A stretch of DNA of 64,000 nucleotides, taken from assembly GCA_963797175.1 (NCBI GenBank), contig CAWCOL010000011.1:95853-159852 (forward strand). Reading direction: 5' to 3'. The notes under the pieces were generated by a model. That model had not been told where the DNA came from. It searched no databases and worked only from the letters and a program-made list of their open reading frames with translations. Below, in pieces: positions 54,849-64,000 of the stretch. Within the stretch, counting starts at the first letter, position 1; each line of letters opens with the position of its first letter. Made by a program: the position numbers and the translations under genes. The stretch comes from an uncultured Actinomycetes bacterium (GTDB lineage: Bacteria > Actinomycetota > Thermoleophilia > Gaiellales > JAICJC01).

Positions 54849-55259
54849 ATGACCCCCGATCCCGACGCTCTGCGCGAGCTCTGTCCCGAGCCGCTGCTGC
54901 TCCCGGCGCTGATCGACGTCCACAGCGGCAATGCCGCGGGCGACGGCGCGATCCTGAGCATCGTGCGCGGCTTGATGGACTCGCCCCGCACCGACGCCGA
55001 GCGCGCCGGCGAGCGGCTCGCCGTCTTCGGCTGGCAGGTGGACGGGCCGGAAGGAACGCTGCGCTGGCTCTACCGCGTGGTCGGCGAGGAGACGGGCCGC
55101 GAGCATGCCTCGTTCACGTTGGTCGTGCCCTGGGCGCCCAGCGACCTGCCCTGCCGGTTGCTCGGCCTGCAGCTGCAGATCACCCTGAACGGCGTCGAAA
55201 ACGCCGCTGCCGAGGAGCTCGACGCCTACCTCGAGCTCGCTCAGGCCGCCCGCGGCTAA
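54849..55259 (+). CDS. Hypothetical protein (136 aa)
   Basis: ATG at 54849. GC3 bias is strong and the composition is protein-like. No motif was recognised. Confidence 0.55.
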   Translation: MTPDPDALRELCPEPLLLPALIDVHSGNAAGDGAILSIVRGLMDSPRTDAERAGERLAVFGWQVDGPEGTLRWLYRVVGEETGREHASFTLVVPWAPSDLPCRLLGLQLQITLNGVENAAAEELDAYLELAQAARG

Positions 55260-56665
55260 TTCTTCTCGGCGGCATCCGTCGCGAGATGGAACTCGAGCGA
55301 CCGCGAGACCGGGTCTGCCCGCACCAGCCGGACCGCCACGGGCTCGGCCAGCGGCGGCGCCGGATCGGCGTGCAGGCGCGCCCGCACCGGCGGGTCGTCG
55401 ATCTGGATGATCGTGCCGCGCGCGTCCGTCCCCAGCGGCACCGCCCGGAACACCTCGCCCACCCGCGTCTCCAGCAGGCGCGTCTCCATCAGGTCGATGA
55501 TCGCGCGCTCGACACGGCCCGACCGGGAGTCGCCCTCGGCCATCGCGTGGGGCAGCCCCTCCAGCTTCGCCCGGTCGCCGGCCCCGACCAGCAGATCGAG
55601 CACGTAGCGGTCCTGGAGCCGGCGGAGCGGCGCGGTGGCGTGCGCGTAGCGCGTGGCCAGCCCGGCGTGCTCCGATCCGGCCGGCGGCGCCCCGTCGAAG
55701 AACAGGTACGACGCGTGGCCCATCACGCCGCGCGCCTCCTGGAGCAGCGCCGCCTCCCGCGGCCGTGACGGGTCGAGCCGCGGGGCGAACGACCGGAACG
55801 GCTCGTCCGCGGGCCACGCGACGTCCAGCGCGGCCGCGGCCCGGCGCAGCTGCGCCACGCGGTAGTCGTCCACCCCACCCATCACCCGTAGCAGCCCCAT
55901 GCCGCCCCGCACCATCCGGTCGGCGGCCGTCATCCCCGCCAGCAGCGAGATCTCGGCGTTCCAGTCCTCGACCGGCAGCCGCGGCTCGAGCTCCAGCCGG
56001 TAGCCGCACGGTGAGGCCGCATCGGCCACGACCTCCTGGGCCGGCGCCTCCAGGCTGACGGCCCCGCGGGCCACGGCCAGCGCGCGCCGCAATGTCCCGA
56101 TCTGCTCCAGGCAGGGGATCGACCCGTCGCCGTACGCCAGCTTCTGCCGGCTGCGGACGGTCGCCCGCTCGACGCCCGCCGACCGGCGCTCGCCATGGGC
56201 GTCCAGCTCGATCGTGAACACGATCGCCGGCCGCAGCTCGCCGGGCAGGAGGCTGGCCGCGCCCTCGGACAGGGCCGTCGGGTAGAGCGGCGCCCGAACG
56301 TCCGGGCAGTAGACCGTGCACCCGCGCCGCCACGCCTCCTGCTCGAGCGCCGAGCCCGGCCGCACGAAGGCGCCGACGTCGGCGATCGCGTAGCGCACCC
56401 GAAAGCCGTCGCCGTCGCGCTCGAGGTGCATCGCCTGGTCGAGGTCCATGCTGCCCGGCGGGTCGATCGTGACGAACTCGACGCCGGTCAGGTCGGTGCG
56501 GCCCGCGCCGGACGGGTGCGCGGCGGCCGCCGCCTCGGCCTCGCGCTCGACCTCGTCGGGGAAGTCGACCGCAACGTCGAACTGCTCGCGGATGCGCGCG
56601 AAGTCCTCCCGCAGCGTCTGGGGCGGCGCGGACGGACGGTGGTAGACGGACGGGGCGGGCGTGCG
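55256..56665 (-). CDS. RNB-domain ribonuclease (RNase II/R family) with an unresolved start codon
   Basis: The listed ORF starts at M 56449, inside catalytic motif I (FVTIDPPGS-M-DLDQA). The frame is open and protein-like up to the ilvC TAG (56666-56668) but has no ATG, GTG or TTG. Confidence 0.7.
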   Translation of the reverse strand, partial: RTPAPSVYHRPSAPPQTLREDFARIREQFDVAVDFPDEVEREAEAAAAAHPSGAGRTDLTGVEFVTIDPPGSMDLDQAMHLERDGDGFRVRYAIADVGAFVRPGSALEQEAWRRGCTVYCPDVRAPLYPTALSEGAASLLPGELRPAIVFTIELDAHGERRSAGVERATVRSRQKLAYGDGSIPCLEQIGTLRRALAVARGAVSLEAPAQEVVADAASPCGYRLELEPRLPVEDWNAEISLLAGMTAADRMVRGGMGLLRVMGGVDDYRVAQLRRAAAALDVAWPADEPFRSFAPRLDPSRPREAALLQEARGVMGHASYLFFDGAPPAGSEHAGLATRYAHATAPLRRLQDRYVLDLLVGAGDRAKLEGLPHAMAEGDSRSGRVERAIIDLMETRLLETRVGEVFRAVPLGTDARGTIIQIDDPPVRARLHADPAPPLAEPVAVRLVRADPVSRSLEFHLATDAAEKN

Positions 56666-61051: not shown

Positions 61052-62593
61052 TCAGACTCCGGCCAGCTCCTGCTCCGGTTCGGTCGCGGTCTTGGCGTGC
61101 GCGCAGGCGCGCAGGTAGGCCTCGGCTGAGGCCTCGGTGATATCGGTGGACACTGCCTGGCTGGCAAACGTCGCGCCGCCGCACTCGACGACGACCCGCA
61201 CTTCTCCCAGCGCGTCCGCACCGCCCGAGACGGCCCCGATCGTGTACTCGACGAGCGTGGCGGGCACGCCCATCACCTGGTCGATGGCGCGGAACACCGC
61301 GTCCACCGGGCCGTCGCCCTCCGCCTCGCCCGTGCGCTCCGTGTCCGAGTGGGCAACCGTGATCTCGGCCCGCGCGGGATCGCCCGTGCGGGTCGTGATC
61401 GCCAGCGACACCAGCCGGTGGGTCTCCTCACGCTCACGCAGGGAGTCGGACGCGATGGCCTCCAGGTCGAGTGAGGTGATCTTCTGCTTGCGGTCGGCGA
61501 TCTCCTTGAACCGGGCGAACGCCCGGCGCAGGTCGTCGCCCTCGATGGTGAAGCCCAGGTCGGCGAAGGCCTGGCGCAGCGCGTGCCGGCCCGAGTGCTT
61601 TCCGAGCACGATGTCCGACCCGGCCAGGCCGACGGACTCGGCGTCCATGATCTCGTATGTCCGGCGGTTGGCCAGCACACCGTGGGCGTGGATGCCCGCC
61701 TCATGGGCGAACGCGTTGCGGCCCACGATCGCCTTGTTGGGCTGGACGACGTAGCCGGTCAGGCGCGAGACCATCCGCGACGTGCGCACGATCTCGGGCG
61801 TGACGATGGTCGTGTCCAGGCCCAGCCGCGGGCGGCGGGTGCGGAGCAGCATCACGATCTCCTCGAGCGAGGCGTTGCCCGCCCGCTCGCCGATGCCGTT
61901 GATCGTGCACTCCACCTGCCGCGCGCCGGCCATGACGCCCGCCATCGAGTTGGCCACGGCCAGCCCCAGGTCGTCGTGGCAGTGCACGGAGAGGACGACG
62001 CCGTGCAGCTCGGGCACCCGCTCGTACAGGTCGGTGAGGATCTCGACGTACTCCTCCGGCACGGTGTAGCCGACGGTGTCGGGGATGTTGATGGTGGTGG
62101 CTCCGGCGGCGATCGCCGTGCGCACGACCTGCGCCATGAACGCGGCGTCGGTGCGGGTCGCGTCCTCGCACGAGAACTCGACGTCGGCGGTGAACGCGCG
62201 GGCGCGGCGGACGGCCCGGTCGGCGGCGGCGACCACCTCGTCGCGCGTCATCCGCAGCTTGTGCTCCATGTGGATGTCCGACGTCGCGATGAACGTGTGG
62301 ATGCGCGGAGTGTTGACGCCGTGCAGCGAGTCGATGGCGGCGTCGATGTCCTCGTCGTTGCACCGCGCCAGCGACGCGACGACGCACTCGACCGCCTTGC
62401 CGACGGCGCGGATGCCCTCGATCTCACCCGGCGAGCTGATGGCGAAGCCGGCCTCGATCACGTTCACGCCCAGCCGCTCGAGCTGGCGGGCGATCTCGAC
62501 CTTCTCGCCGGCGTTCAGGGCGATGCCGGGCGACTGCTCGCCGTCTCTCAGCGTGGTGTCGAAGATCCGGACGGTGTCCGTGGTTGATCCCAT
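61052..62593 (-). CDS. leuA: 2-isopropylmalate synthase (short LeuA/CimA-type)
   Basis: IFDTTLRDGEQSPG, HCHDDLGLAVANS and a C-terminal LeuA dimerisation-like domain. RBS GAGGAGGAA is upstream. Confidence 0.88.
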   Translation of the reverse strand: MGSTTDTVRIFDTTLRDGEQSPGIALNAGEKVEIARQLERLGVNVIEAGFAISSPGEIEGIRAVGKAVECVVASLARCNDEDIDAAIDSLHGVNTPRIHTFIATSDIHMEHKLRMTRDEVVAAADRAVRRARAFTADVEFSCEDATRTDAAFMAQVVRTAIAAGATTINIPDTVGYTVPEEYVEILTDLYERVPELHGVVLSVHCHDDLGLAVANSMAGVMAGARQVECTINGIGERAGNASLEEIVMLLRTRRPRLGLDTTIVTPEIVRTSRMVSRLTGYVVQPNKAIVGRNAFAHEAGIHAHGVLANRRTYEIMDAESVGLAGSDIVLGKHSGRHALRQAFADLGFTIEGDDLRRAFARFKEIADRKQKITSLDLEAIASDSLREREETHRLVSLAITTRTGDPARAEITVAHSDTERTGEAEGDGPVDAVFRAIDQVMGVPATLVEYTIGAVSGGADALGEVRVVVECGGATFASQAVSTDITEASAEAYLRACAHAKTATEPEQELAGV

Positions 62594-62693
62594 GCGCAGG
62601 TTCCTCCTCGAAATCGGGGATGCGGACGCACCTCTCCCGTTGACTCGTGTGCGTGTGCGCCGGTCGCCGGCGCGTGTGCAGAAGTCGCTCGCC

Positions 62694-62816
62694 CTACCGG
62701 GCGAGGAGGAGGAGCAGGCCGAGGAGGCTGAGCGCGAAGAGCGAGGTGAACCCGACAGGACGCCCGCTCAGCGCGGAGCGGGCAGGGTTCTCCTTGGTGA
62801 TCGCGGTGCTCGGCAT
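62694..62816 (-). promoter_or_regulatory. Candidate leucine leader peptide ORF (40 codons) upstream of leuA
   Basis: MPSTAITKENPARSALSGRPVGFTSLFALSLLGLLLLLAR-stop, translated by hand (it is below the ORF-track size cut-off). There are 7 Leu codons in the 8 codons before Ala-Arg-stop. A TATTCT -10-like hexamer ends 10 nt upstream of the ATG. Confidence 0.5.
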
Positions 62817-63015
62817 GGTGACGCACAGAATAGGGTGCCGATCGCCCCGGGTCAAATCGCACCCGCGGCCGGACCGTCCGATCCGGCCGCGGCCGGCACC
62901 GGATCGGTGTTAGCGAACATGTGAAGTACAGCGTATGTGTGATGCATCATCTGACGCAGCGTGTAGAGTCTTACGAAGTCCAGTACGAAAGTCCCTGTTA
63001 CACGAGAGGTGAAAC

Positions 63016-63408
63016 ATGCCGCGCAGCGGTGAGATAGGTGAGAAGATCTTCGACGACGTCGAGAAGCTCGTGGCCGGCGGCATGAACCGGAGCCAGGCGT
63101 TCGCCAAGATCTCCGCGGACACCGGCCGCCGTGCGGGCACCGTGGCAGCCAACTATTACCGTGTCGCCCGCAAGCGCGCGGGTGGCTCGCTGCGGCCGCG
63201 CACCACGCGTGCCGCGCGGAAGCCGCGGTCGACCGCACCCGCGACGCGCGGCCGCCGGGCCGCGAGCAGCTCGGGGCGCGATATCGATGCGATCGCCGAC
63301 GAGCTCGTTCGCAACATCCAGGACCTCGCCGCCGCGGTCAAGGCGAACAGCGCCGAGACCAGCGAGCTGCGCGCCCGGCTGGACGGCGTCAAGAAGATGC
63401 TGGGGTAA
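63016..63408 (+). CDS. Small hypothetical protein with a basic linker (130 aa)
   Basis: RBS GAGAGGTGA is upstream. Has a helical N-terminus, an R/K/S/T-rich middle and a coiled-coil-like C-terminus. No family was recognised. Confidence 0.6.
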   Translation: MPRSGEIGEKIFDDVEKLVAGGMNRSQAFAKISADTGRRAGTVAANYYRVARKRAGGSLRPRTTRAARKPRSTAPATRGRRAASSSGRDIDAIADELVRNIQDLAAAVKANSAETSELRARLDGVKKMLG

Positions 63409-64000
63409 CGAGCGACGCTGCCACGGCGGGAGGGTCGTCCTCCCGCCGGCGGCGCAGCTCGTGTGCGCGCAGCGCCAGCCACAGCTCCAGCCGGTCGCCG
63501 GCGTCGGTCAGGTCGCGGCCGGTCAGCTCCTCGATCTTGCGCACCCGGTAGCGCAGCGTGTGGCGGTGCACGGACAGCGCCGCCGCCGCCTCGGCCCACC
63601 GGCCGTTGGCCTCGATGTAGGCGCGCAGCGACTCGACCAGCGCCGAGCCGTGCCGCCGGTCGTGGGCGACCAGCGGTCCCAGCAGCGAGTCACAGAAGAG
63701 CTCCATGCCGCGATCGCCCTGGAGCGAGAGCAGCAGCTGCATCGATCCCAGGTCGCGGAACGTTGCCAGAACAGGCGTGCCGTTGGGCGGTCGCGCCTCG
63801 ATCGCATACAGCGCCTCCTCGTAGCTGCGCGGCAGCTCGGCCGGTGAGCGGCGCAGCCGGCCGACGCCTGCCGCTCCGGCACCGGTCTCCAGCAGCATGC
63901 GGCCCGCCGCCTGCTCGGCGTCGGCATCGGCCGCGGCCTCGAACAGCACGGCCACGCCGCCGTCGCGGATGGTCGCCGGGCCGTAGGCCGCAGCCCGCTC
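63389..64000 (-). CDS. PucR/CdaR-family transcriptional regulator (C-terminal part; 5' end outside window)
   Basis: C-terminal HTH AAAALSVHRHTLRYRVRKIEELTGRDL. The frame is open to the window edge. Confidence 0.8.
   Translation of the reverse strand, partial: ERAAAYGPATIRDGGVAVLFEAAADADAEQAAGRMLLETGAGAAGVGRLRRSPAELPRSYEEALYAIEARPPNGTPVLATFRDLGSMQLLLSLQGDRGMELFCDSLLGPLVAHDRRHGSALVESLRAYIEANGRWAEAAAALSVHRHTLRYRVRKIEELTGRDLTDAGDRLELWLALRAHELRRRREDDPPAVAASLVTPASS

What the first reader, a model, noticed from the sequence alone, without database searches (positions are those of the whole stretch)
62594..62832. Unlisted 40-codon ORF ending in LLGLLLLLAR about 100 nt upstream of leuA: candidate Leu attenuation leader
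Hand translation of the minus strand from ATG 62816 gives MPSTAITKENPARSALSGRPVGFTSLFALSLLGLLLLLAR, with the stop at 62694-62696. That is 10 Leu in 40 codons, and 7 Leu (six CTC, one CTG) in the 8 codons just before Ala-Arg-stop.

The ORF lies on the same strand as leuA, 97 nt upstream of its RBS and ATG (62593). A TATTCT -10-like hexamer ends 10 nt upstream of its ATG, and no SD is visible. That fits a leaderless or near-leaderless leader transcript.

Leu-codon-rich leader peptides controlling leu and ilv operons are established in enterobacteria (leuL) and reported for corynebacterial ilvBNC and leuA. Here the leader would sit in front of a leuA-leuB-ilvB-ilvN-ilvC string, yet it contains essentially only a Leu run, not Val or Ile.

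A perfect hairpin GCGCCGG-cga-CCGGCGC (62657-62673) follows the stop. I could not identify an unambiguous terminator/antiterminator pair or a U-tract.
Basis: partly seen in the sequence, partly recalled or inferred. Interest (0 to 1): 0.62.

Follow-up and report, generated by a model that had tools for sequence, protein, structure and literature searches.

The report
Leucine-sensing leader before leuA
A tiny leucine-rich reading frame in front of the leucine-synthesis operon of an uncultured soil actinobacterium (order Gaiellales) is real and conserved, and it most likely switches the operon on when leucine runs short by freeing the gene's ribosome-binding site, a known principle in a form not yet described.

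Summary
The 40-codon ORF (62816..62694, minus strand), its 10 Leu, the TATTCT box 10 nt upstream and the hairpin at 62657-62673 are all there.

It is not chance. This is the only place in the 64-kb window, in six frames, with at least 7 Leu in 8 codons. The ORF and the RNA behind it are kept in all 27 relatives that have this leuA, and in 128 of 201 genomes of the order (Gaiellales). They are also kept in 98 of 251 genomes of the class (Thermoleophilia), but not in other Actinomycetota.

Folding shows the Leu-codon run (CUCCUCCUC) pairing with the leuA Shine-Dalgarno sequence (GAGGAGG). The stop codon sits in the loop of a covarying hairpin. No terminator is present.

In sister lineages the same RNA chassis carries Leu-only, Ile-only or mixed Leu/Ile/Val codons, depending on the gene it precedes.

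The best reading is a near-leaderless leader-peptide translational attenuator. It works like the "LEU element" predicted in 2005 and the mycobacterial poly-Cys leaderless sORFs. It has no detectable similarity to the former and no Rfam family. No transcript data could be obtained.

The parts
62850..62855 (-). -35-like hexamer TTGACC
   Evidence: Promoter scan. TTGAC is conserved in all 22 sequences of the window's family checked.
62827..62832 (-). -10-like hexamer TATTCT, 10 nt before the leader ATG. The predicted 5' UTR is only about 1-4 nt.
   Evidence: TAnnnT lies 8-10 nt before the leader ATG in family members. The transcription start itself has not been measured.
62694..62816 (-). Leader ORF of 40 codons plus TAG: MPSTAITKENPARSALSGRPVGFTSLFALSLLGLLLLLAR*
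   Evidence: The frame is open in all homologues. Leu+Ile+Val make up 60% of the last 13 codons in this frame, against 3-4% in the other two frames.
62789..62795 (-). SD-like box AAGGAGA inside the leader (codons 8-9). Its role is unknown; it may compete for the anti-SD tract.
   Evidence: Conserved as AAGGAG, CAGGAG or GAGAGG in the family, and as GAAGGG in the sister family whose leuA SD is GGAAGGGGG. Not tested further.
62762..62783 (-). Hairpin H1 inside the leader ORF (GCCCGCUC-cgcgcu-GAGCGGGC)
   Evidence: Compensatory variants are GCGCGCUC/GAGCGCGC (L016), GCCCGCUG/CAGCGGGC (L008) and GGCCGCU/AGCGGCC (L022-24), all.
62718..62728 (-). Upstream anti-SD copy GCCUCCUCGGC (codons 30-33)
   Evidence: It pairs with the SD when the ribosome is modelled at codon 38 or at the stop codon.
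62702..62714 (-). Main Leu run and anti-SD tract CUCCUCCUCCUCG (part of codon 34, codons 35-38, start of codon 39)
   Evidence: It pairs with GAGGAGG in the minimum-free-energy fold. In 73 of 93 homologues more than half of the SD pairing probability goes to the last 15 leader codons.
62688..62705 (-). Hairpin CUCGCCC-ggua-GGGCGAG, with the UA of the stop codon UAG in its loop
   Evidence: Pair 22-33 is C-G in 40 sequences and G-C in 18. Pair 21-34 is C-G, U-G or U-A. No sequence is unpaired at either position.
62657..62673 (-).
   Evidence: ACGCGCC...GGCGCA is invariant in all 27 relatives found through LeuA alone. Because it never varies there is no covariation, so the sequence itself seems constrained.
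62619..62638 (-). Conserved box GGGAGAGGUGCG with a small hairpin (GGUGC-gucc-GCAUC)
   Evidence: The box is kept across the order, but its pairing partner differs between lineages.
62603..62609 (-). leuA Shine-Dalgarno sequence GAGGAGG
   Evidence: Mean unpaired probability is 0.001 in the free RNA. It rises to 0.27-0.52 with a ribosome footprint placed on codons 33-37.
61052..62593 (-). leuA (513 aa, short 'bacterial' type 2-isopropylmalate synthase), first gene of leuA-leuB-ilvB-ilvN-ilvC
   Evidence: It is the only isopropylmalate synthase found in this genome.

Best explanation
The region is a leucine-sensing leader-peptide attenuator that acts on translation initiation.

Transcription starts a few bases before the leader AUG (inferred). 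Ribosomes translate the 40-codon leader.

When leucyl-tRNA is plentiful, they run through the Leu codons, terminate at the UAG and leave. The CU-rich Leu-codon tract then pairs with the leuA Shine-Dalgarno sequence, so leuA is poorly translated. The tightly packed leuB-ilvBNC genes behind it would suffer with it, through lost coupling or polarity.

When leucyl-tRNA is scarce, a ribosome stalls on the run of Leu codons (34-38). It covers both anti-SD copies and leaves the Shine-Dalgarno sequence free for a new ribosome.

Shown here:
- the ORF and its conservation;
- the codon bias;
- the predicted pairing;
- the covarying stop-codon hairpin;
- leader codon content that follows the downstream gene.

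Inferred only:
- the transcription start;
- actual translation of the leader;
- stalling;
- the regulatory outcome.
For: Sequence and fold of this copy:
- The ORF is as described, behind a promoter-like site with near-leaderless spacing.
- The fold is unusually stable, -119.8 kcal/mol with z = -3.45, and the Leu run is paired to GAGGAGG.
- With a modelled ribosome footprint on codons 33-37, the SD unpaired probability rises from 0.001 to 0.27-0.52. It falls back to 0.002 at codon 38 or at the stop.

Homologues:
- In 93 non-redundant homologues, 65% of the SD pairing probability goes to the last 15 leader codons. It is 34% after shuffling those codons.
- Contiguous Watson-Crick complementarity between leader tail and SD averages 7.2 nt. 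It is 4.7-5.0 nt for control windows and 6.5 nt for non-cognate pairs.
- Leu codons are kept through synonymous changes. CTC is over-used, 8 of 10 against 28% in the operon genes.
- The element is conserved in 27 of 27 relatives with this leuA, 128 of 201 genomes of the order and 98 of 251 of the class.

Leader codon content tracks the gene served:
- Leaders before leuA of this family average 6.7 Leu, 0.5 Ile and 0.1 Val in the last 15 codons.
- Leaders directly before ilvBNC average 3.0 Leu, 2.3 Ile and 3.4 Val.
- Within single genomes, a Leu-only leader (..ALLLPR*) precedes the long-type leuA. A mixed Leu/Ile/Val leader, or an Ile-only one (AIIAIAIIPR*), precedes a short LeuA-family gene or leuB.

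Precedent: the same logic was shown experimentally for poly-Cys leaderless sORFs in Mycobacterium smegmatis (bioRxiv 10.1101/834739).
Against:
- The pairing evidence is thermodynamic prediction. Part of it follows simply from CU-rich Leu codons facing a GA-rich SD: shuffled tails still take 34% of the pairing.
- For the classical LEU element, Seliverstov et al. cite an experiment in Streptomyces in which mutating the Leu codons did not change regulation. They favoured a protein-binding model (PMC1262725).
- The invariant P3 hairpin and the GGGAGAGGUGCG box have no role in this model.
- A Leu-only sensor in front of ilvBNC, which are also needed for Val and Ile, is not obviously optimal.
Confidence: 0.68

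Rival explanations
1. The leader peptide senses leucine, but the output is premature transcription termination, either Rho-dependent or at a non-canonical terminator, rather than SD masking. The roughly 100-nt untranslated, C-rich spacer after the leader stop would let Rho or a U-less hairpin stop RNA polymerase unless a stalled ribosome interferes.
For: - Leader peptides classically act through termination.
- Other Actinomycetota do have a Leu leader followed by a hairpin and a U tract before leuA, for example MTHSALLLLM* followed by GCCCCCGG..CCGGGGGCUUUUU.
- Canonical terminators are almost absent from this high-GC region, 4 found against 2.1 expected and all inside genes. Their absence in the leader therefore says little.
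- A strong GC hairpin (P3) follows the leader.
Against: - No hairpin with a U tract anywhere in 62400-63200, nor in any of the homologues inspected.
- No mutually exclusive terminator/antiterminator pair was found.
- The spacer is heavily structured, which makes it a poor Rho loading site.
- Direct complementarity between the Leu run and the SD is conserved, and a termination model does not need it.
Confidence: 0.2
2. The conserved RNA (P3 hairpin, GGGAGAGGUGCG box and base stem) is the binding site of a protein or small ligand that controls the SD. Translation of the short ORF would be irrelevant. This is the model Seliverstov et al. preferred for the classical LEU element.
For: - P3 and the box are invariant in sequence rather than covarying. 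That suggests recognition of the sequence itself.
- The literature reports that Leu-codon mutations did not affect regulation in Streptomyces (cited in PMC1262725).
Against: - The ORF frame is always open and always reads Leu/Ile/Val.
- Leu positions drift synonymously.
- Leader codon content switches with the downstream gene while the RNA chassis stays. A pure protein- or ligand-binding site does not predict this.
- The second subfamily, before long-type leuA, lacks P3 altogether but keeps the Leu leader and the stop-codon hairpin.
Confidence: 0.08
3. The ORF encodes a functional small hydrophobic (membrane) peptide, or it is a chance open frame in GC-rich DNA.
For: The C-terminal LLGLLLLL stretch is hydrophobic, and GC-rich genomes contain many spurious ORFs.
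Against: - Leader length ranges from 15 to 45 or more codons, and the N-terminal sequence is not conserved between lineages.
- The conserved stretches coincide with RNA helices.
- The position is always 85-106 nt before a branched-chain amino-acid gene.
- This is the only run of at least 7 Leu in 8 codons in 64 kb.
Confidence: 0.03

Closest known systems
LEU element upstream of leuA in Actinobacteria (Seliverstov, Putzer, Gelfand, Lyubetsky 2005, BMC Microbiol 5:54, PMC1262725); a computational prediction
   Same: It lies upstream of leuA in an actinobacterium. It has an upstream ORF with a run of Leu codons, a base stem formed by the Leu codons and the leuA Shine-Dalgarno sequence, and no terminator.
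   Different: - No detectable sequence or structure similarity. A covariance model of the present family finds nothing in other classes of the phylum, nor in 12 loci with classical leaders even with filters off.
- Classical leaders are 10-15 codons long (MQRALLLSRRDGV*, MRFGLLLLSCRGEGL*), with the Leu run in the middle.
- Here the leader is 15-45 codons long, and the Leu run abuts a hairpin that holds the stop codon in its loop.
- The defining pseudoknot could not be established here.
- Here the leuA is the short type and heads a leuA-leuB-ilvBNC operon.
Poly-cysteine leaderless short ORFs of Mycobacterium smegmatis (Canestrari et al., bioRxiv 10.1101/834739); shown experimentally
   Same: A leaderless short ORF carries its regulatory codon tract at the 3' end. 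The tract is predicted to pair with the SD region of the next gene, and the structure is exceptionally stable. A stalled ribosome unmasks the ribosome-binding site. Termination is not involved.
   Different: It senses Cys rather than Leu, in a different lineage and with different RNA. In the present case nothing has been tested experimentally.
Enterobacterial leu operon leader (leuL; Rfam RF00512) and corynebacterial leuA/ilvBNC leader peptides (PMC4046766)
   Same: A short leader peptide with consecutive Leu codons senses charged tRNA-Leu (established knowledge).
   Different: Those act through a terminator/antiterminator switch with a U tract. Here there is no terminator and no Rfam match.
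ermC/cat-type translational attenuation (established knowledge, not checked here)
   Same: A ribosome stalled in a leader ORF opens a hairpin that masks the SD of the downstream gene.
   Different: In those systems an antibiotic induces the stall, not shortage of a charged tRNA.

Membership tests
LEU element (Seliverstov et al. 2005) | Located upstream of leuA in an actinobacterium | tested here: met
   leuA is identified by NF002086. Relatives carry record titles naming Gaiellales, Gaiellaceae or Thermoleophilia, all Actinomycetota.
LEU element (Seliverstov et al. 2005) | [quoted passage not shown] | tested here: met
LEU element (Seliverstov et al. 2005) | Base stem formed by the Leu codon run and the leuA Shine-Dalgarno box | tested here: met
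   Met in silico only, by the minimum-free-energy fold and partition function and the complementarity test.
LEU element (Seliverstov et al. 2005) | Conserved pseudoknot, or alternative hairpin, enclosed by the base stem | tested here: inconclusive
   Nested hairpins are found (stop-codon hairpin, P3, a small P4). RNAalifold and a scan of all column pairs gave no supported pseudoknot.
LEU element (Seliverstov et al. 2005) | Sequence or structure similarity to the described elements before long-type leuA of Mycobacterium-, Streptomyces- and Corynebacterium-like genomes | tested here: not met
   Model R1 gave 2 doubtful hits among about 367 genomes outside the class. Against 12 classical loci with filters off, the best score was 14 bits at E = 0.08. 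The sequences look different by eye.
Classical leader-peptide transcription attenuator (leuL, Rfam RF00512) | Intrinsic terminator (hairpin plus U tract) between the leader ORF and the gene, with a competing antiterminator | tested here: not met
   No terminator-like site in 62400-63200. Caveat: such sites are rare throughout this genome region.
Classical leader-peptide transcription attenuator (leuL, Rfam RF00512) | Match to the Rfam covariance model | tested here: not met
   No Rfam family matches the leader even at E <= 10.
Leaderless-sORF translational attenuators (mycobacterial poly-Cys type) | The sORF starts at or within a few nt of the transcription start | tested here: inconclusive
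   A conserved -10 box lies 8-10 nt before the AUG, and there is no SD.
Leaderless-sORF translational attenuators (mycobacterial poly-Cys type) | The regulatory codon tract at the 3' end of the sORF pairs with the SD region of the next gene | tested here: met
   (prediction only).
Leaderless-sORF translational attenuators (mycobacterial poly-Cys type) | The response to amino-acid limitation is translational and independent of termination | not testable with these tools
   Needs reporter fusions or Ribo-seq.

The most novel reading that the evidence does not exclude
The element may integrate two inputs. Besides reading leucyl-tRNA supply through the leader ORF, its core may be recognised by a trans-acting protein or small molecule that sets how tightly the ribosome-binding site is closed. 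That core is the P3 hairpin ACGCGCC..GGCGCA plus the GGGAGAGGUGCG box. It never varies and has no role in the simple stalling model. The element would then be a hybrid of leader-peptide attenuator and riboswitch or protein-binding switch. Across Thermoleophilia it is reused as a codon-programmable chassis for Leu, Ile and Val genes.
Probability: 0.12. Interest if true: 0.65.

Novelty: new variant of a known kind. Interest (0 to 1): 0.4.

Why it matters
The result gives a concrete regulatory mechanism for branched-chain amino-acid synthesis in Thermoleophilia, an abundant and almost uncultured group of soil actinobacteria. I found no paper on such leaders in this group and no Rfam family.

The family also offers a natural experiment. 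The same RNA chassis carries Leu-only, Ile-only or mixed Leu/Ile/Val codons depending on the gene behind it, sometimes within one genome. This is comparative support for the view that the codons are the sensor, a point left open for the 2005 LEU element. The principle itself is known, so the gain is in breadth and in testability, not in a new mechanism.

In practice, the leader ORF and RNA should be annotated in these genomes. The covariance model could seed an Rfam family.

Tried and rejected
- **Rfam** (E <= 10) over 61500-64000 gave only three chance-level matches elsewhere and nothing on the leader.
- **RNAalifold** on the MAFFT alignment recovered only the stop-codon hairpin and P3, plus a doubtful 3-bp long-range helix.
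- **A scan of all column pairs** for covariation gave mostly lineage-level noise beyond the stop-codon hairpin. No pseudoknot or P4 consensus could be supported.
- **Unconstrained duplex folding** of leader tail against SD was noisy in this GC-rich RNA. It was replaced by the contiguous-complementarity and partition-function tests.
- **A pairing of GUGCG with the ACGC after P3** was considered by eye. It was dropped because several sequences break it.
- **A search of the whole genome** for other short ORFs with amino-acid runs and a stop-in-loop hairpin found only this one. A candidate 'SSTTT*' ORF on contig C5 looked like the antisense strand of coding sequence and was rejected.
- **The covariance model** found no second copy in this genome; the next best hits scored 17 bits at E about 0.6-0.9.
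- **My first Leu-codon count** included leuB out of frame. It was redone in frame.
- **Two hits outside the class**, L161 and L167, lie in what looks like coding sequence and were treated as false.

Full report
**What is there.** On the minus strand, ATG 62816 opens a 40-codon frame, MPSTAITKENPARSALSGRPVGFTSLFALSLLGLLLLLAR, that stops at 62696-62694.
- 10 Leu in all, and 7 Leu in codons 31-38 (six CTC, one CTG);
- the perfect hairpin GCGCCGG-cga-CCGGCGC at 62673-62657.

The TATTCT hexamer is part of a promoter-like site, TTGACC-17-TATTCT. That site is the only such match in the 20 kb scanned, against 0.4 expected. The 10 nt between it and the ATG hold no Shine-Dalgarno (SD) sequence.

One hundred nt after the stop comes leuA, 513 aa, the short 'bacterial' type (NF002086, 710.8 bits against a cut-off of 532). 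It is followed by leuB, ilvB, ilvN and ilvC. No terminator-like site and no Rfam family lie in the region.

**Not chance.**
- In all six frames of the 64-kb window (73% G+C) this is the only 8-codon stretch with at least 7 Leu.
- The leader uses CTC for 8 of its 10 Leu. In the five operon genes CTC is 43 of 153 Leu codons and CTG is 109, giving a binomial P of about 0.001 (which corrects).

**Who carries it.** Record titles of near relatives name Gaiellales, Gaiellaceae and Thermoleophilia, all Actinomycetota, mostly soil MAGs.
- I took relatives through the LeuA protein alone, so with no bias towards the leader. All 27 genomes with an orthologous leuA (58-88% identity) have a short ORF ending in a Leu-rich tail about 100 nt upstream.
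- Those of the window's family that were checked also share the TTGAC/TAnnnT promoter, 8-10 nt before the ATG.
One was a chance match, and two carry a doubtful 'Bifidobacterium' label.
- A covariance model (R1) matches once in the window's own genome, at 108 bits.
- R1 also matches in 128 of 201 genomes of the order, including 41 of the window's family, and in 98 of 251 genomes of the class.
- Outside the class, R1 hit only two places among about 367 genomes. Both look like coding sequence.

**Anatomy of the RNA.** The 256-nt transcript region folds to -119.8 kcal/mol, with z = -3.45 and 0 of 200 shuffles as stable. Four features recur.
- **H1.** A hairpin inside the ORF at 62783-62762, with compensatory variants in three lineages.
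- **Stop-codon hairpin.** It is built from the last sense codons and the bases just after the stop (CUCGCCC-ggua-GGGCGAG, 62705-62688), so the UA of UAG lies in the loop. Its central pair is C-G in 40 sequences and G-C in 18, and none is unpaired. The next pair is C-G, U-G or U-A. Neither 5' column was fixed by my search pattern.
- **P3.** It is invariant even in the 27 relatives found through protein alone, so it offers no covariation either way.
- **The box GGGAGAGGUGCG.** Its pairing partner differs between lineages.

I could not establish a pseudoknot.

**The Leu run is an anti-Shine-Dalgarno sequence.** In the minimum-free-energy fold, CUCCUCCUC pairs with the leuA SD GAGGAGG. The SD has an unpaired probability of 0.001.

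Across 93 non-redundant homologues:
- 65% of the SD pairing probability goes to the last 15 leader codons;
- the share is more than half in 73 of the 93;
- it falls to 34% when those codons are shuffled.

The longest perfect complementarity between leader tail and SD region averages 7.2 nt. It is 4.7-5.0 nt for control windows and 6.5 nt for non-cognate pairs. In a permutation test, 0 of 2000 shuffles reached the observed value, but the sequences are related, so this is not a clean P value.

Flanking bases change together, as seen:
- CUCCUGCUC with GAGCAGGAG;
- GCAUCCUCCUCG with CGAGGAGGAUGC;
- CUCCUGAU with AUCAGGAG;
- GCCUCCUUCC with GGAAGGGGGC.

I then placed a 29-nt ribosome footprint on the window's RNA. 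With codons 33-37 in the A site, the SD opens to 0.27-0.52. With codon 38 or the stop codon in the A site, it closes again to 0.002, because a second anti-SD copy (GCCUCCUCGGC, 62728-62718) is released behind the ribosome. Only a stall inside the Leu run is therefore predicted to free the SD. This is a thermodynamic sketch, not a measurement.

**The codons behave as a sensor.**
- Within the window's family the Leu positions vary mainly by synonymous CTC/CTG/CTT changes. At the fifth codon before the stop there are 17 synonymous changes against 7 non-synonymous, and those 7 are Val or Ile.
- In the leader frame, 60% of the last 13 codons are Leu, Ile or Val and none is a stop. The other two frames read 3-4% Leu/Ile/Val, mostly Ser and Pro, and contain stops.
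- Composition follows the gene served:

| Leader tail | n | Leu / Ile / Val in last 15 codons | First genes downstream |
|---|---|---|---|
| ..LLLAR* (window's family) | 39 | 6.7 / 0.5 / 0.1 | leuA-leuB-ilvBNC |
| ..GLLPR* | 15 | 5.9 / 0.2 / 1.6 | same operon |
| ..ILP[LHR]* | 60 | 4.5 / 2.5 / 1.6 | same operon |
| ..[IV][IV]P[RH]* | 7 | 3.0 / 2.3 / 3.4 | mostly ilvBNC directly (six of seven) |

- Many genomes of a sister family hold two or three copies. A Leu-only leader (..ALLLPR*) always precedes the long-type leuA (TIGR00970, 775.7 bits against 697.4). In the same genomes, a mixed leader (..FSIVLILPR*) or an Ile-only one (..AIIAIAIIPR*) precedes leuB or a short LeuA-family gene that lacks the C-terminal regulatory domain.
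- The window's genome has only the short, full-length LeuA, and its leader is Leu-only.

This pattern is what a tRNA-charging sensor predicts. A pure protein-binding site does not predict it.

**Most likely mechanism.** The element is a near-leaderless leader-peptide attenuator acting on translation initiation.
- With ample leucyl-tRNA, the leader is translated to its stop, the ribosome leaves, and the Leu tract closes the leuA ribosome-binding site.
- With scarce leucyl-tRNA, a ribosome stalled on codons 34-38 keeps the tract occupied and the site open.
- Repression of the downstream genes would follow through loss of coupling or polarity. Both of these are inferred.

The closest proven case is the poly-Cys leaderless sORFs of Mycobacterium smegmatis, in which stalled ribosomes block the structures that sequester the next gene's ribosome-binding site and termination is not involved (bioRxiv 10.1101/834739).

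**Relation to the LEU element.** Seliverstov et al. (2005) defined the LEU element upstream of actinobacterial leuA as:
- a leader ORF with a Leu run;
- a pseudoknot;
- a base stem between the Leu codons and the SD (PMC1262725).

The present element meets the first and third features, and the second is unresolved. It is not detectably similar to the classical elements. I fetched 12 long-type leuA loci from other classes of the phylum. They carry short leaders such as MQRALLLSRRDGV*, MRFGLLLLSCRGEGL* or MTHSALLLLM*, the last followed by a true terminator with a U tract. R1 scores them at no more than 14 bits, even with filters off.

I therefore file the element as working like a LEU element, in a distinct lineage-specific form. 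It is not a demonstrated member of that family.

An earlier agent of this scan reached the same reading on another Thermoleophilia genome (e1-4261700). That is not independent evidence.

**Weak points.**
- Canonical terminators are rare throughout this region, so their absence does not exclude Rho-dependent or non-canonical termination.
- CU-rich Leu codons and a GA-rich SD pair partly by composition alone.
- The invariant P3 hairpin and the box are unexplained.
- Seliverstov et al. cite an experiment in Streptomyces in which Leu-codon mutations did not alter regulation of the classical element.
- A Leu-only sensor in front of ilvBNC remains odd. Sister lineages with the same operon use mixed Leu/Ile/Val leaders.

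**Verdict.** The principle is known, but this architecture is new and undescribed: a long leader, the stop codon in a hairpin loop, two anti-SD copies, and a codon-swappable chassis across Thermoleophilia. Interest is moderate.

Noticed in passing
L191:4580-4710 (+), genome G553: A copy of the same RNA chassis has an Ile-only leader tail, ..RSRAIIAIAIIPR*. It precedes a LeuA-family gene that scores below every NCBIfam cut-off and may be a citramalate synthase. The same contig also holds a Leu-only copy before long-type leuA.
   Followed up: partly
L183:2897-3015 (-) and L183:3208-3324 (+); the same arrangement in L184 and L185: In a sister family, two elements sit back to back about 200 nt apart. 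They drive divergent genes: a mixed Leu/Ile/Val leader before leuB and a Leu-only leader before long-type leuA. The second subfamily lacks the ACGCGCC..GGCGCA hairpin and has a conserved GACAUACCCGUC motif instead.
   Followed up: partly
L040, L104, L086, L131, L142 (elements before ilvB): When the element precedes ilvB, the ilvB start lies 143-206 nt after the leader stop instead of about 100 nt. An SD plus GTG sits at the usual distance, so a second small ORF or a longer ilvB N-terminus may lie in between.
   Followed up: no
window 63016-63408 (+): A divergent 130-aa gene beside the control region matches no NCBIfam family. It has a basic, Arg/Ala/Ser-rich middle part. Whether it is kept next to the leader in relatives was not checked.
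   Followed up: no
window 55256-56449 (-): The ORF after ilvC matches RNase R / RNase II models only from model position about 212-265 onward, starting at its residue 1. The listed ATG therefore cannot be the true start. The enzyme is either truncated or begins upstream at a non-listed start.
   Followed up: no
L084 (CAZPQP010000030.1) and L149 (CAMDVX010000070.1): Two public MAG records labelled Bifidobacterium carry a typical Gaiellales-type leader-leuA locus. L084's element is near-identical to those of the sister family's freshwater MAGs. The taxonomic labels are probably wrong.
   Followed up: partly
window 62789-62795 (-): An SD-like box inside the leader ORF (AAGGAGA, codons 8-9) changes in step with the leuA SD between families: AGGAG with GGAGG, and GAAGGG with GGAAGGGGG. 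It might compete for the anti-SD tract or pause ribosomes.
   Followed up: no
L174, L178, L179 (other Actinomycetota classes): Long-type leuA in these genomes has a 10-codon Leu leader (for example MTHSALLLLM*) followed by a canonical hairpin and U-tract terminator. Both classical termination attenuators and SD-masking leaders therefore exist for leuA within one phylum.
   Followed up: partly
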